From the NCBI GenBank assembly GCA_965205645.1, contig OZ242172.1, forward strand, positions 896,122-960,121: a DNA stretch of 64,000 nt, read 5' to 3'. Numbering within the stretch: the stretch's first letter is position 1; each line of letters opens with the position of its first letter. This document shows, one piece after another, positions 22,407 to 24,121 of this stretch. The position numbers and the translations under genes are program-made. This DNA is from Bdellovibrionales bacterium (lineage in GTDB: Bacteria; Bdellovibrionota; Bdellovibrionia; Bdellovibrionales; UBA1609). The notes beneath the pieces are model-generated. The model was not told the origin of the DNA. It saw only the letters and a list, made by a program, of their open reading frames with translations, and searched no databases.

Positions 22407-23126
22407 TTATTCAGTATAGGTAACTACTCCTGTTCCGAGATAACAAAGTGAAACACCAGCTATAGCTAATTGAACTGGCCTATATTTTTTTAATTTGCTT
22501 ATTTCCTCTTTTAATTTATTTTGTTTGTTCCGATTAATCCATGGTTGTTTTTTTGTCTTTTCTAATTTTTGAGTGGTAATTTTGGCTTCTACGCTCTCAG
22601 TTAATGCAATTGATGAAGATGATAATCCTGTAATAAGTGATCCAATTTCTATTATTGGATTCATATCTGTTCCCAGAGTAGTAGCACCAGTACCTAAAAT
22701 ACAACCTGCAACTCCAGCTACTACATTTTTTTTCCATCCAGCTTTATGAATAGGAGGTTTGTCACTGTTAAGTACGATATTATTTTCTGCGATGTGTTTA
22801 AGACGGTTTAAATATTCACCGGCACAAGGAGGTAGATCTATTCCCTCTATTATAGAAGCTGGTTCTTGTTGTAATTGGTGCGCTTGTTCTGCTGTATTCG
22901 TTGTGTTTAATTGTGCAAAATTTGGCACTAATTCTGGGTATTCTGCTAAGTCTACTTGGCAAATTGGATCTCCGTTTTTATCTAACGTAATAGCAAAACG
23001 TACTCTTGGTTTTTGAGCAATTTGAGATTGATATGTTTCACTGTTAGTTTGATGAAATCTCCAACCAGGTAGCACCAGTACAAATAACAGCAAGTAGATA
23101 ATTAGAGGTAATCTTTTTATATTCAT
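22407..23126 (-). CDS. VPNFA-IHK paralog family member P1, short form (signal peptide, no lipobox)
   Basis: 239 aa. The N-terminus ends LPGWRFHQ. The conserved core is VRFAITLDKNGDPICQVDLAEYPELVPNFAQ...DLPPC..YL..L...A.NNIVLNSDKPPIHKAG...VVAGVAGCILG. Gly-rich hydrophobic segments follow. The C-terminal tail is ...SLCYLGTGVV. Confidence 0.8.
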   Translation of the reverse strand: MNIKRLPLIIYLLLFVLVLPGWRFHQTNSETYQSQIAQKPRVRFAITLDKNGDPICQVDLAEYPELVPNFAQLNTTNTAEQAHQLQQEPASIIEGIDLPPCAGEYLNRLKHIAENNIVLNSDKPPIHKAGWKKNVVAGVAGCILGTGATTLGTDMNPIIEIGSLITGLSSSSIALTESVEAKITTQKLEKTKKQPWINRNKQNKLKEEISKLKKYRPVQLAIAGVSLCYLGTGVVTYTE

Positions 23127-23308
23127 TTTTAATTCCTTTCAAAAAATTAAAATATTTATATAGATATATACTATTTTTTTAAATAGATTACAGAATAATT
23201 AGATATTTAGTGTATTTTTTTCACTCTGTAAAAAAATATTAGTGGATTGTGGCTTTTTTTCTATTTGAAGTATCTAGCAGCTCACAAGTGTTGGTAATAA
23301 TTATTTTG

Positions 23309-24121
23309 TTATTTAGTATAGGCAACTACTTCTGCTCCGAGATAACAAAATGAAGCCCCAGCCATAGCTGAGTGAACTGGTCTATTTTTTTTCAATTTGC
23401 TTATTTGCTCTTTTAATTTATTTTGTTTATTCCGATTAATCCATGGTCGTTTCTTTTCTAATTCTTGAATGGTTAGTCTTTCTTCTGCAGAATTACCTAA
23501 TGCAACTCCTAAAAATCCACTTCCTGCAAATGTTGAGCTAATGACTCCTATTTTTGTATCAATATCTGTTGCCAAAGAAGTGACACTGCCTAAAATACAA
23601 CCTGCAACTCCAGCTACTACATTTTCTTTCAATCCAGCTTTATGAATAGGAGGTTTATCACTGTTCAGTACGACATTATTTTTTGCGACGGTTGTTAGCA
23701 AATGTAAATATTTATCAGTGCAAGGGGGAAGCTCCGAACCTTCTTCTGTGGAAGCAAGTCCTCTTTTAGATTCATTTGCTTGATAGACCATTTGTTCTAC
23801 TGGTTTTGCAAAATTAGGCATTAGTGCCGGATATTTTAATAAATTTACGCGGCAGATAGGTTTGCCATCTTTATTAAATACAGTAGCAAATCGCACAGGA
23901 ACTGGTGTTTTAACTGCTGGATATTTTACCAGCTTTGGATTACTTTCTTGTATCGTTTTTCGTAGTTTGTCTATATCTTTATCTATCTTTTCCACTAAAC
24001 AGTTAGAGCAGTAGGCTGTAGAACCAGCTGACTGTGGTTTTCTGTTTTTTAACATCTGGCAACCCATTAGCACGGGTAATGTTAAAGTGAATAGTATCCA
24101 CAAGACGTGTTTTATTTTCAT
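23309..24121 (-). CDS. VPNFA-IHK paralog family member P2, long form (lipoprotein leader + CxxC module)
   Basis: 270 aa with lipobox LMGC. The leader module is QMLKNRKPQSAGSTAYCSNCLVEKIDKDIDKLRKTIQESNP, followed by the same core as P1. The 3' half is nearly identical to P1 at DNA level. Confidence 0.8.
   Translation of the reverse strand: MKIKHVLWILFTLTLPVLMGCQMLKNRKPQSAGSTAYCSNCLVEKIDKDIDKLRKTIQESNPKLVKYPAVKTPVPVRFATVFNKDGKPICRVNLLKYPALMPNFAKPVEQMVYQANESKRGLASTEEGSELPPCTDKYLHLLTTVAKNNVVLNSDKPPIHKAGLKENVVAGVAGCILGSVTSLATDIDTKIGVISSTFAGSGFLGVALGNSAEERLTIQELEKKRPWINRNKQNKLKEQISKLKKNRPVHSAMAGASFCYLGAEVVAYTK

What the first reader, a model, noticed from the sequence alone, without database searches (positions are those of the whole stretch)
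22407..24121. Unrecognised multi-copy secreted/lipoprotein family (VPNFA-IHK family): type locus directly after rpoC
Six ORFs in this window share one architecture: 22407, 23309, 27945, 57430, 58595 and 60866, all on the minus strand. Each begins with a signal peptide. A ~90-aa conserved core follows: V(R/N)(S/F)A(I/T)V(L/F)(D/N)K.G.P(I/V)C.(V/I)(D/N)L...P.L(V/I/M)P(N/D)FA(Q/K), ~25 variable aa, then DLP(P/S)C..(K/Q/E)YL..L...A..N(I/V)V(L/V/I)N, then (I/K)(H/Y)K. Next come a Gly/Ala-rich hydrophobic segment with a conserved Cys (VAG.A.C.LG) and a hypervariable region with glycine-zipper-like runs. A short hydrophobic C-terminal tail, C(Y)(L/V/I/F)(G/I)T, closes the protein. Two sub-types exist. 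Long forms have a lipobox Cys plus a conserved leader, QM.K..K.QSAG...YC..CLV...D.D...L...IQ..NP. Short forms begin ...LPGWR(N/F)(Y/H)Q. I recognise no characterised family. The conserved N-terminal domain, variable C-terminal half and multi-locus amplification resemble polymorphic surface or envelope protein families.
Basis: partly seen in the sequence, partly recalled or inferred. Interest (0 to 1): 0.82.

Follow-up and report, generated by a model that had tools for sequence, protein, structure and literature searches.

The report
Orphan recombining envelope protein family
The six genes are real and belong to a small, previously undescribed family of exported proteins, probably in the cell envelope, found only in a group of small-genome Bdellovibrio relatives (some from sponges); the bacteria reshuffle these genes by recombination, and what the proteins do is still unknown.

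Summary
All six minus-strand ORFs exist at the stated coordinates and share the described architecture. A seventh ORF (53817-54587, +) shares only the lipoprotein leader. The host is a reduced-genome Bdellovibrionales bacterium; RpoC is 80-87% identical to MAGs of 1.3-2.3 Mb, and one relative comes from a sponge metagenome.

The family matches nothing in Pfam, NCBIfam, PADLOC, PHROGs or PDB sequences. Foldseek of two AlphaFold models against PDB, and of the full-length model against BFVD, also finds nothing. An exhaustive HMMER search of 1.84 billion representatives gives only 61 clusters.

The proteins have three modules:
- an export module, either lipobox plus a CxxC leader, or a derivative with Cys replaced by Trp and the leader deleted;
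- a ~95-aa domain with two invariant Cys;
- a C-terminal module of two weakly hydrophobic, Cys-bearing helices around a paralog-specific insert.

The modules have discordant histories. Against a relative with ~95% nucleotide identity, copy number differs and dS along single genes runs from 0.014 to 1.8 (flanking genes 0.05-0.18). This indicates gene conversion, duplication and deletion.

The rpoC-adjacent site is the variable one. The lysA- and bioA-adjacent copies hold conserved positions.

Function and location are inferred only. The most likely reading is an envelope-anchored, membrane-interacting family. It is a real orphan family of moderate interest.

The parts
22407..23126 (-). Family member A, short form, 239 aa. 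Signal sequence ends in LPGWR and there is no leader. Then come the VPNFA core (Cys56, Cys101) and the C-terminal module (Cys142, Cys228).
   Evidence: ORF; alignment; profile hit at E 3e-78; Cys positions.
23309..24121 (-). Family member B, long form, 270 aa. It was used as the reference for numbering.
   Evidence: E 6e-124; AlphaFold model.
24059..24121 (-). Member B residues 1-21: signal peptide with lipobox VLMG-C21.
   Evidence: Sequence; lipobox table for 44 leader-bearing proteins; predicted helix 3-22.
23927..24058 (-). Member B residues 22-65: the leader module QMLKN-RKPQSAG-STAYC38SNC41LVEKIDKDIDKL..., with CxxC at the start of a predicted helix (residues 39-60).
   Evidence: The same module alone sits on about 25 other protein clusters.
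23633..23926 (-). Member B residues 66-163: the VPNFA core domain. It has strands 74-76, 78-82, 88-93 and 105-107 and helix 136-147. Cys90 and Cys134 are invariant.
   Evidence: pLDDT is 85-93 over residues 70-110 and 131-150 in the full-length model. The core-only model gives the same secondary structure. Invariant columns are listed.
23312..23632 (-). Member B residues 164-270: the C-terminal module. H1 is VVAGVAGC175ILG. A Gly-rich segment H2 and a basic amphipathic helix follow. H3 is AGASFC259YLGAE.
   Evidence: Hydropathy; crude insertion energies; this part of the model has low confidence.
27945..28742 (-). Family member C, long form, 265 aa, convergent with lysA. This position is conserved in the close relative L090 and in the distant relative L084.
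   Evidence: E 2e-119; synteny.
57430..58206 (-). Family member D, short form, 258 aa. It is the last gene of the three-gene array between bioA and the TPR/zinc-ribbon gene.
   Evidence: E 2e-81.
58595..59539 (-). Family member E, long form, 314 aa, with a 35-aa hydrophilic tail after H3.
   Evidence: E 1e-109; tail length.
60866..61690 (-). Family member F, short form, 274 aa, directly downstream of bioA. Its positional counterpart in L087 (P0017) is a long form.
   Evidence: E 8e-82; synteny.
53817..54587 (+). Leader-only lipoprotein, 256 aa. It has the same signal peptide, lipobox and RKPQSAGFRGYCPNCL leader, joined to an unrelated Cys-containing C-terminal domain similar to P0058.
   Evidence: Profile positions 1-73 match at E 3e-26. 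Sequence. No Pfam match.
60028..60717 (+). Possible, unproven divergent relative. The ORF (229 aa, TTG start) lies inside the three-gene array and weakly matches the C-terminal module only (SYVH.., INCLLAASA, AGTCFITMEG).
   Evidence: It scores 10.7 bits, above all 2000 shuffles (best 5.8). The window-wide E-value is only 0.024, and an unrelated ORF scores 10.3. It has no counterpart in L087.
22398..22554 (-). 3' end of member A. It is 89% identical in DNA to the 3' end of member B (23300-23456), against about 74% for the two genes overall. This is a probable gene-conversion tract between the tandem neighbours.
   Evidence: Repeat family D15; gene-wide identity.
24166..24233 (-). Upstream element shared by long-form genes B and C. 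The other copy is at 28799-28866, with 79% identity. Its role (promoter or 5'UTR) is untested.
   Evidence: Repeat family D19; alignment.

Best explanation
This is a clade-restricted family of Sec-exported envelope proteins in reduced-genome Bdellovibrionales, some of them sponge-associated. Each protein is built from three modules.

1. Export/anchor module. Long forms have a signal-peptidase-II lipobox followed by a ~45-aa leader (RKPQSAGF.GYC..CL...D.D...L). The same clade also puts this leader on unrelated cargo proteins. Short forms have the lipobox Cys aligned to a Trp (LPGWR) and the leader deleted.

2. Core domain. This is a ~95-aa 'VPNFA' domain of a small beta-sheet plus one helix. 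Its two invariant cysteines probably form a disulfide.

3. C-terminal module of 105-150 aa. Two weakly hydrophobic helices rich in small residues each carry an invariant Cys (H1 A.C..G; H3 CY.G). They bracket a paralog-specific insert made of a Gly-rich segment and a basic amphipathic helix.

My committed reading is as follows. The protein is fully translocated. Long forms are lipidated and anchored in the envelope, most likely the outer membrane. The conserved core does a job common to all paralogs. The Cys-paired helical hairpin sits in or on a membrane, and its variable insert gives each paralog its specificity at the interface between the cell and its environment or host.

New variants arise by tandem duplication, deletion and segmental gene conversion between paralogs.

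Shown: the existence of the family, its modularity, its restriction to this clade, purifying selection on the core, and the recombination mosaic.
Inferred: export, lipidation, disulfides, membrane association, location and biological role.
For: Family and modules:
- Six full-length copies and one leader-only copy lie in the window.
- 35 full-length members share four invariant Cys plus L100 and P102.
- 44 proteins carry the lipobox plus leader, with at least five unrelated C-terminal cargos.
- MAFFT aligns the short-form W with the lipobox C. P0017, the positional counterpart of short-form F60866, is a long form.

Fold:
- The core is predicted with pLDDT 85-93 as strands plus a helix. The leader is predicted as a helix.

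Hydrophobic segments:
- H1 and H3 have mean Kyte-Doolittle hydropathy of about 1.0-1.6.
- Crude Hessa-scale sums have medians of +4.6 and +5.2 kcal/mol. None of 35 members reaches 1 or below.
- The segments are therefore unlikely to act as autonomous stop-transfer helices, which is compatible with full export.

Functional constraint:
- dN/dS is 0.25-0.27 in leader and core between orthologs.
- Chromosomal positions are conserved in relatives whose copies are only 30-45% identical.

Recombination:
- The core of B is 74-78% identical to P0005 and P0007, but its C-terminal module only 23-25%.
- B against A is 48% in the core and 59-61% in the C-terminal module.
- Core and C-terminal identities correlate at only r = 0.27 across pairs.
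- Against relative L090 (flanks 92-96% identical), the rpoC site holds one gene instead of two. That gene's signal peptide is 100% B-like and its leader is 100% P0007-like. Its core is 72% identical and its C-terminal module 49% identical to the nearest window copies.
- dS along single genes ranges from 0.014 to 1.8. Neighbouring genes give 0.055-0.18.

Host:
- It belongs to the Bdellovibrionales.
- Relatives occur in a sponge metagenome.
- A reduced sponge-associated Bdellovibrionales genome (SP5OBV1, 1.59 Mb) was judged unlikely to follow the bacterivorous lifestyle of its relatives in PMC7313196.
Against: - No localisation, expression or biochemical data exist.
- No SignalP, LipoP or TMHMM-type predictor was available. 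The lipobox and signal peptide calls rest on my reading of the motif.
- The C-terminal module is modelled at pLDDT below 50, so the hairpin and its Cys-Cys pairing are inferences.
- The region between H1 and H3 is net basic (396 K/R against 264 D/E over 35 members). By the positive-inside rule this fits a cytoplasmic loop of a 2-TM inner-membrane protein better than my outer-membrane reading.
- The Hessa sum I used ignores position weighting.
- One ortholog pair has a 99% identical C-terminal module, so diversification is not general.
- Sponge association rests on one sample label.
Confidence: 0.45

Rival explanations
1. These are inner-membrane proteins with a housekeeping envelope role. H1 and H3 would be true transmembrane helices forming a 2-TM hairpin. 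The VPNFA domain would face the periplasm and the variable basic insert the cytoplasm. The lipid anchor of the long forms would be an extra tether. On this view the paralogs are specialised scaffolds or adaptors, not surface proteins.
For: - The H1-H3 insert is net positive, as expected for a cytoplasmic loop.
- The two invariant Cys lie at similar depth in H1 and H3, about 8-9 residues from the N-domain side (sequences).
- Weak, non-significant Pfam hits go to 2-TM domains: CyanoTRADDas_TM in 3 of 35 members at E 0.12, and SLATT_1.
- Positions next to housekeeping genes are conserved.
Against: - H1 and H3 are only marginally hydrophobic. None of 35 members reaches an insertion sum of 1 kcal/mol or below.
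- A lipobox combined with two TM helices is an unusual arrangement.
- Rapid module exchange and copy-number change between ~95% identical genomes is atypical for housekeeping scaffolds.
- Some members carry a 35-100-aa hydrophilic tail after H3, which would then have to be periplasmic.
Confidence: 0.25
2. These are exported membrane-inserting effectors or toxins. The C-terminal hairpin, rich in small residues, would insert into the membrane of a host or prey cell, as glycine-zipper pore formers do. The conserved N-terminal part would serve delivery, and the variable cassettes would change target specificity.
For: - The N-terminal part is conserved and the C-terminal part varies.
- Marginally hydrophobic Gly/Ala-rich helices are typical of proteins that must stay soluble before insertion.
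- dN/dS is about 1.06 in the C-terminal module of one positional ortholog pair.
- The host belongs to an order of predators, and one member sits next to T2SS genes gspC and gspD.
Against: - There is no match to any toxin or effector family, nor to Pfam's glycine-zipper families.
- No recurrent adjacent immunity-like gene was found in nine loci.
- H1 and H3 with their Cys are conserved across all paralogs, so the 'toxin' part is not really polymorphic.
- The T2SS adjacency was seen only once.
- The lipobox argues for retention on the producing cell.
Confidence: 0.15
3. This is a programmed antigenic or phase-variation system, in which one expressed surface lipoprotein is rewritten from silent cassettes.
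For: Segmental gene conversion occurs between paralogs, and the 5' ends including the upstream element are conserved.
Against: - All copies are complete ORFs with their own start codon and Shine-Dalgarno-like sequence.
- No truncated silent cassettes, invertible segments or homopolymer tracts in coding starts were seen.
- Paralogs are old, at 66-74% DNA identity, and several hold conserved chromosomal positions.
Confidence: 0.05
4. These are decaying or non-functional ORFs, such as remnants of an old expansion.
For: The genome is reduced, pseudogenised pheS and Rpn fragments occur near family genes in relatives, and there is no expression evidence.
Against: - All six ORFs are intact.
- The invariant Cys and Pro pattern holds across 35 members.
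- dN/dS is about 0.26 in the core.
- Synteny is kept across distant relatives.
Confidence: 0.02

Closest known systems
Glycine-zipper outer-membrane lipoproteins: SlyB/Pcp and the Rickettsia 17-kDa antigen (Pfam PF05433 Rick_17kDa_Anti, PF13488 Gly-zipper_Omp). Recalled from my own knowledge.
   Same: They share a lipobox N-terminus and short helices that are rich in Gly/Ala/Ser and only weakly hydrophobic. Such helices could sit in a membrane leaflet. Both are small envelope proteins.
   Different: - No member of 35 matches any glycine-zipper Pfam model, even at E up to 10. The only hint is NCBIfam YiaD_Gzip_OmpA at E 0.035 in 2 of 6 members.
- The domain order is reversed here: the soluble domain comes first and the helices last.
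- The four invariant Cys, the CxxC leader and the VPNFA domain have no counterpart.
Paralogous recombining surface lipoprotein families, such as Borrelia Vsp/Vlp/VlsE and Mycoplasma Vsp/Vsa. Recalled from my own knowledge.
   Same: Both are multi-copy families with a conserved signal peptide, lipobox and 5' region. Both diversify by segmental gene conversion and change in copy number.
   Different: - There is no sequence or fold relationship.
- There is no expression site with silent cassettes.
- Copies are scattered among housekeeping genes and several keep conserved positions.
- The proteins carry a conserved C-terminal hydrophobic hairpin.
Chlamydial inclusion-membrane (Inc) proteins. Recalled from my own knowledge.
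   Same: Both are lineage-specific expansions in host-associated bacteria with small genomes. Both have paired hydrophobic segments next to variable regions with helical or coiled-coil character.
   Different: Inc proteins are type III secretion substrates without Sec signal peptides or lipoboxes. They have no shared N-terminal domain and no conserved Cys pattern. No homology was detected.
Glycine-zipper pore-forming effectors and bacteriocins, such as T6SS Tse4/Ssp6 and Caulobacter CdzC/D. Recalled from my own knowledge.
   Same: Both have small-xxx-small helices of marginal hydrophobicity that could insert into a target membrane, and variable C-terminal parts.
   Different: There is no homology, no adjacent immunity gene and no T6SS or CDI context. 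The family is exported by Sec and SPII, and its helices are conserved rather than polymorphic.
N-terminal lipoprotein sorting or tether signals, such as the Bacteroidota lipoprotein export signal that follows the lipidated Cys. Recalled from my own knowledge. This comparison is for the leader module only.
   Same: Both are short conserved stretches placed right after the lipidated Cys and shared by many unrelated lipoproteins of one clade.
   Different: The leader here is about 45 aa long. It contains an invariant CxxC at the start of a helix, and its sequence is unrelated. Any sorting role is untested.

Membership tests
Any Pfam-A or NCBIfam family | Profile HMM match at or above the curated cut-off | tested here: not met
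   Six members were scanned against Pfam and NCBIfam, and 35 members against Pfam at E up to 10. No family is hit by more than 3 members, and every score is far below the cut-off.
Glycine-zipper lipoproteins (PF05433, PF13488, PF13441, PF13436) | HMM match to a Gly-zipper model | tested here: not met
   None of these models appears among the 25 most-matched Pfam families listed for the 35 members at E up to 10; 43 families had some hit, and none was hit by more than 3 members. The only hint is NCBIfam YiaD_Gzip_OmpA at E 0.035 in 2 of 6 members.
Glycine-zipper lipoproteins (PF05433, PF13488, PF13441, PF13436) | Repeated GxxxGxxxG motif | tested here: inconclusive
   The strict motif occurs in 1 of 6 window members. 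A looser [GAS]xxx[GAS] motif repeated three times occurs in 4 of 6.
Bacterial lipoproteins (SPII substrates) | Signal peptide ending in lipobox [LVI][ASTVI][GAS]C | tested here: met
   Long forms end in VLMGC, TLVSC or VLISC. Of the 44 leader-bearing proteins, 39 to 40 have such a box at residues 13-46. Short forms have W in place of C.
Bacterial lipoproteins (SPII substrates) | Actual lipidation and cleavage by Lgt and LspA | not testable with these tools
   This needs globomycin sensitivity, lipid labelling or mass spectrometry.
Proteins with a solved structural relative | Significant sequence or fold match to the PDB | tested here: not met
   Profile against PDB sequences: best E 0.37 for the full-length profile and 0.18 for the core. 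Foldseek against PDB: best E 1.0 for the full model and 2.3 for the core model. Foldseek against BFVD: best E 0.14. Caveat: the models have a mean pLDDT of 63-67.
Polymorphic toxin or effector systems | Variable C-terminal toxin domain with a cognate immunity gene immediately downstream | tested here: not met
   No recurrent small downstream gene was found in the window or in nine related loci. PADLOC gave no hit.
Cassette-based antigenic variation systems | One expression locus plus promoterless or truncated donor cassettes | tested here: not met
   All six copies are full-length ORFs with start codons. No partial copies were found in the window down to 25-aa ORFs.
Phage or defence-system proteins | Match to PHROGs or PADLOC models, or presence on viral contigs | tested here: not met
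   There was no consistent hit. The viral-contig scan could not be run with the broad alignment and was not repeated.

The most novel reading that the evidence does not exclude
Two linked novelties remain possible.

(a) The RKPQSAGF.GYC..C leader that follows the lipidated Cys may be a new, clade-specific lipoprotein sorting or tethering signal. It would be recognised by dedicated machinery and would direct a whole set of unrelated cargos, the VPNFA family being the largest, to the cell surface.

(b) The C-terminal Cys-paired hairpin may be a new kind of membrane-inserting module. Small-genome, animal-associated Bdellovibrionales would use it on host or prey membranes, and a recombination-driven repertoire would tune its specificity.
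Probability: 0.12. Interest if true: 0.7.

Novelty: new variant of a known kind. Interest (0 to 1): 0.45.

Why it matters
Reduced-genome Bdellovibrionales recovered with animals such as sponges are uncultured, and their way of life is unknown. They could be predators, epibionts or symbionts.

A genome of about 1.5 Mb that keeps at least eight copies of one exported protein family is investing in it. It also keeps reshuffling their modules. In other host-associated bacteria this pattern usually marks the molecules that touch the outside world.

The family therefore gives concrete candidates for localisation and interaction studies. It also gives a marker set for this clade.

The shared CxxC leader offers a testable case of a clade-specific lipoprotein targeting signal.

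If the family turns out to be an ordinary inner-membrane scaffold, the value is limited to annotation.

Tried and rejected
Searches that found nothing:
- Pfam, NCBIfam, PADLOC and PHROGs scans.
- Profile search of PDB sequences with the full-length and the core alignment.
- AlphaFold2 on the 35-sequence alignment and on the core alone. The core fold was consistent but the C-terminal module had low confidence.
- Foldseek against PDB with both models, and against BFVD with the full-length model.
- Scans of the GTDB species genomes and the JGI metagenomes with family peptide patterns. The patterns were narrow, so absence from these collections is not proven.

Checks that were uninformative or led nowhere:
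- Exact look-ups of window proteins returned 'not on record'.
- The profile found no member within 3 kb of rpoC in 80 relatives. The flank was too short to reach the lysA site.
- Sigma-70 promoter matches were no more frequent than in shuffled sequence.
- My first dN/dS attempt used the wrong gene. L002 4444-5256 is a different paralog, not P0004. I redid it with L090.
- The series of ~180-aa plus-strand ORFs at 38-44 kb is the ribosomal protein operon, not a second paralog family.
- ORF 60028-60717 as a family member or partner has only borderline support and no counterpart in L087.
- Literature searches found no description of this family or genome. I searched for the genome size, two sample or project accessions, reduced Bdellovibrionales or Bdellovibrionota symbionts, and sponge-associated Bdellovibrionales MAGs. 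The last search did lead to the sponge MAG papers I then read.
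Full report
1. The observation

They align end to end with 46% mean column identity. 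A profile built from the family scores each copy at E 1e-70 to 1e-124, and no other ORF in the window matches over its full length.

Three copies are long forms (23309, 27945, 58595). They have a lipobox and a ~45-aa leader. The other three are short forms (22407, 57430, 60866), whose signal sequence ends in LPGWR.

The same profile also found a seventh ORF, 53817-54587 on the plus strand. It shares only the signal peptide, lipobox and leader (profile positions 1-73, E 3e-26) and continues into an unrelated domain.

2. Whose genome this is

The window carries tuf-secE-nusG-rplKAJL-rpoBC and the S10/spc ribosomal operon. G+C is about 37%. RpoC is 80-87% identical to a group of 'Bdellovibrionales bacterium' MAGs, seven of them single chromosomes of 1.33-2.31 Mb, and 68-69% identical to Bdellovibrio bacteriovorus.

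The large protein collection places the window proteins on one contig of 1,555,701 bp.

One family member (P0010) lies in conserved synteny on a contig labelled 'sponge metagenome'. A sponge MAG of this order with a reduced genome (SP5OBV1, 1.59 Mb) has been described; its authors judged it unlikely to be bacterivorous because flagellar and other genes are missing (PMC7313196). A Bdellovibrionales MAG is also listed in a sponge genome note (PMC12166358). I take animal association of this clade as plausible, not proven.

3. How big and how known the family is

Pfam, NCBIfam, PADLOC and PHROGs give no consistent hit, and that includes Pfam's glycine-zipper models. A word-indexed search of 5.8 billion proteins returned 8 proteins. 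The exhaustive HMMER search of 1.84 billion representatives returned 61 clusters at E up to 0.001.

About 36 of those clusters carry the core domain. About 25 carry only the leader, joined to other C-terminal parts. These include Cys-rich 'KCAEGYVEG' repeats, one HEAT-repeat protein, and several parts with no Pfam match.

Pattern scans of the GTDB species genomes and the JGI metagenomes found nothing. The patterns were narrow, so I read this as 'rare', not 'absent'.

Profile searches of PDB sequences were negative. Foldseek of both AlphaFold models against the PDB, and of the full-length model against BFVD, was negative too. The family is therefore uncharacterised by every test I could run.

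4. Anatomy

Residue numbers are those of the 23309 protein.

- Residues 1-21 form a signal peptide ending in the lipobox VLMG-C.
- Residues 22-65 form the leader, QMLKN-RKPQSAG-xxxYCxxCLxxxxDxDxxxL. The CxxC sits at the start of a predicted helix (residues 39-60). The leader is nearly invariant across 44 proteins with different cargos.
- Residues 66-163 form the VPNFA core. Over residues 70-110 and 131-150 it is predicted with pLDDT 85-93, as three or four strands followed, after a variable loop, by one helix. Cys90 and Cys134 are invariant.
- Residues 164-270 form the C-terminal module. H1 (VVAGVAGC175ILG) comes first, then a second Gly-rich segment, then a basic amphipathic helix, then H3 (AGASFC259YLG) and a short tail. 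Some members extend the tail to 35-100 residues.

Four Cys are conserved in all 35 aligned members. In two distant members the last Cys is shifted by a few residues. Four conserved Cys in an exported protein suggest two disulfides. This is an inference, because I had no model coordinates to check it.

H1 and H3 are only marginally hydrophobic. Mean Kyte-Doolittle hydropathy is about 1.0-1.6. Crude Hessa-scale sums have medians of +4.6 and +5.2 kcal/mol, and none of 35 members reaches 1 or below. This argues against classical stop-transfer helices and permits full export.

On the other hand, the insert between H1 and H3 is net basic (396 K/R against 264 D/E). That would fit a cytoplasmic loop. 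Topology is therefore unresolved, and it is what separates my best explanation from its main rival.

In the alignment, the short-form 'PGWR' lines up with the long-form 'xGCQ', and the next ~38 residues are missing. P0017, the positional counterpart of short-form 60866 in another genome, is a long form. Short forms therefore look like derivatives that lost the lipidated Cys and the leader.

5. Evolution: conserved positions and a recombination mosaic

Three chromosomal positions are shared with relatives whose copies are only 30-45% identical:
- convergent with lysA: window 27945, P0020 in L084 and P0004 in L090;
- downstream of bioA: window 60866 and P0017 in L087. L087 has one gene between bioA and the TPR/zinc-ribbon gene, where the window has three plus ORF 60028;
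- between a flavodoxin-like gene and pheS: L002 and L088.

No member lies within 3 kb of rpoC in 80 other relatives.

Module histories disagree:
- The core of 23309 is 74-78% identical to P0005 and P0007, but its C-terminal module is only 23-25% identical to theirs.
- Against its tandem neighbour 22407 the figures are reversed: 48% in the core and 59-61% in the C-terminal module.
- 57430 against P0015 is 53-55% in the core and 76-78% in the C-terminal module.
- Across 28 members, core and C-terminal identities correlate at only r = 0.27.
- In DNA, the 3' ends of the tandem pair are 89% identical over 157 nt, against about 74% overall.

The clearest case is the close relative L090, whose flanking DNA is 92-96% identical to the window. 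Its single gene after rpoC has these features:
- a signal peptide 100% identical to that of 23309;
- a leader 100% identical to that of P0007, a paralog located elsewhere in the window's genome;
- a core only 72% identical to its nearest window relatives;
- a C-terminal module only 49% identical to them.

Nei-Gojobori estimates give the following values:

| Comparison | Region | dS | dN/dS |
|---|---|---|---|
| Baseline | rpoC | 0.055 | 0.15 |
| Baseline | ask | 0.13 | 0.14 |
| Baseline | lysA | 0.18 | 0.15 |
| 27945 vs P0004 | signal peptide | 1.79 | 0.42 |
| 27945 vs P0004 | leader | 0.32 | 0.25 |
| 27945 vs P0004 | core | 0.15 | 0.27 |
| 27945 vs P0004 | C-terminal module | 0.014 | 0.32 |
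| 23309 vs L090 gene | signal peptide | 0.077 | about 0 |
| 23309 vs L090 gene | leader | 0.45 | 0.23 |
| 23309 vs L090 gene | core | 0.64 | 0.26 |
| 23309 vs L090 gene | C-terminal module | 0.33 | 1.06 |

Such uneven dS within single genes is what segmental gene conversion produces. The low dN/dS in leader and core shows that the genes are under purifying selection and are not decaying. The segments are short, about 20-100 codons, so the individual values are rough.

6. What it most likely is

Shown:
- a real family of three modules, confined to this clade;
- purifying selection on the core;
- old paralogs at conserved sites, together with ongoing duplication, deletion and gene conversion.

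Inferred:
- Sec export, and lipidation of the long forms;
- disulfide bonding;
- association of the C-terminal hairpin with a membrane.

I commit to an envelope-anchored, membrane-interacting family. The conserved core would do a common job and the variable insert would give each paralog its specificity at the cell's outer face (confidence 0.45).

The rivals are:
- an inner-membrane 2-TM scaffold (0.25);
- a membrane-inserting effector or toxin (0.15);
- cassette-type antigenic variation (0.05);
- decaying ORFs (0.02).

The report sections give the evidence for and against each.

7. Comparison with known systems

In working principle, the family most resembles paralogous recombining surface lipoprotein families and glycine-zipper outer-membrane lipoproteins. 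The hydrophobic pair plus a variable region recalls chlamydial Inc proteins. These comparisons come from my own knowledge.

Membership fails for every family I could test. There is no HMM match, no fold match, no immunity-gene partner and no silent cassettes. The only membership feature that is met is the generic lipobox of bacterial lipoproteins.

8. Verdict

The 'polymorphic' reading is strengthened by the recombination evidence, but surface location is untested. The C-terminal half is paralog-specific rather than uniformly hypervariable.

This is a true orphan family in an uncultured clade. It is useful as a lead for that clade's biology and has a secondary point of interest in the shared CxxC lipoprotein leader. 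Function is unknown, and lineage-specific orphan families are common. Interest is 0.45.

Noticed in passing
window 24550-24837; also 30163-30312, 44236-44443, 48652-48957, 53488-53546 and 57035-57363: GC-rich repeat units of 69-93 nt occur in tandem and dispersed, several ending in the palindrome CCCGCGACTCGCGGG. One array (3.3 x 69 nt) is inserted in frame in the exonuclease III-like gene 24408-25436, where it adds a repeated 23-aa peptide. The ortholog in L084 is 257 aa and lacks the array; the one in L090 is 337 aa. Translations of similar repeats make up the spurious N-terminal extensions of P0021 and P0032. From memory, this recalls Rickettsia palindromic elements that insert into coding genes.
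   Followed up: partly
window 53817-54587 (+), and proteins P0034-P0058: A lipoprotein leader (lipobox Cys, then RKPQSAGF.GYC..CL...D.D...L) is shared by 44 proteins with at least five unrelated C-terminal cargos. The cargos include Cys-rich 'KCAEGYVEG' repeat proteins and one HEAT-repeat protein. It is better conserved than any cargo and could be a clade-specific sorting or tether signal.
   Followed up: partly
window 60028-60717 (+): This ORF of 229 aa lies inside the three-gene family array on the opposite strand. It has a borderline match (10.7 bits; window E 0.024) to the family's C-terminal module only. It has no counterpart at the same site in L087.
   Followed up: partly
window 29171-30157 (+); L090 9526-9804; L002 5616-6602: An Rpn/YhgA-like gene (Pfam Transposase_31) sits next to family gene 27945. 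It is degraded to a 92-aa fragment at the same site in the close relative L090. An intact copy sits next to a different family paralog in L002. Gene order around these sites differs between genomes that are ~95% identical.
   Followed up: partly
L001 10001-15071: One family member (P0008) lies immediately upstream of the type II secretion genes gspC-like and gspD. This adjacency was seen in one locus only.
   Followed up: no
window 3077-3169: A perfect-looking 12-nt tandem repeat, GGTCTAAATGTC x 7.6, lies just downstream of the Schlafen/AlbA_2-domain gene 1626-3074.
   Followed up: no
window 4441-5835 (-), 46479-47120 (-), 56252-56965 (+): There are three TPR-repeat proteins within 64 kb of a ~1.5-Mb genome. 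One has internal DNA repeats of 102 and 204 nt (4474-5009). A neighbour of a family gene in L088 has a faint leucine-rich-repeat hit. Repeat proteins of this kind are often noted in sponge symbionts (from my own knowledge).
   Followed up: no
L002 3310-4250: In the close relative, pheS is split into two short ORFs of 122 and 147 aa right after a family gene. In L088 it is intact at 340 aa. This is either a possible pseudogene or an assembly error in a contig with 4x coverage.
   Followed up: no
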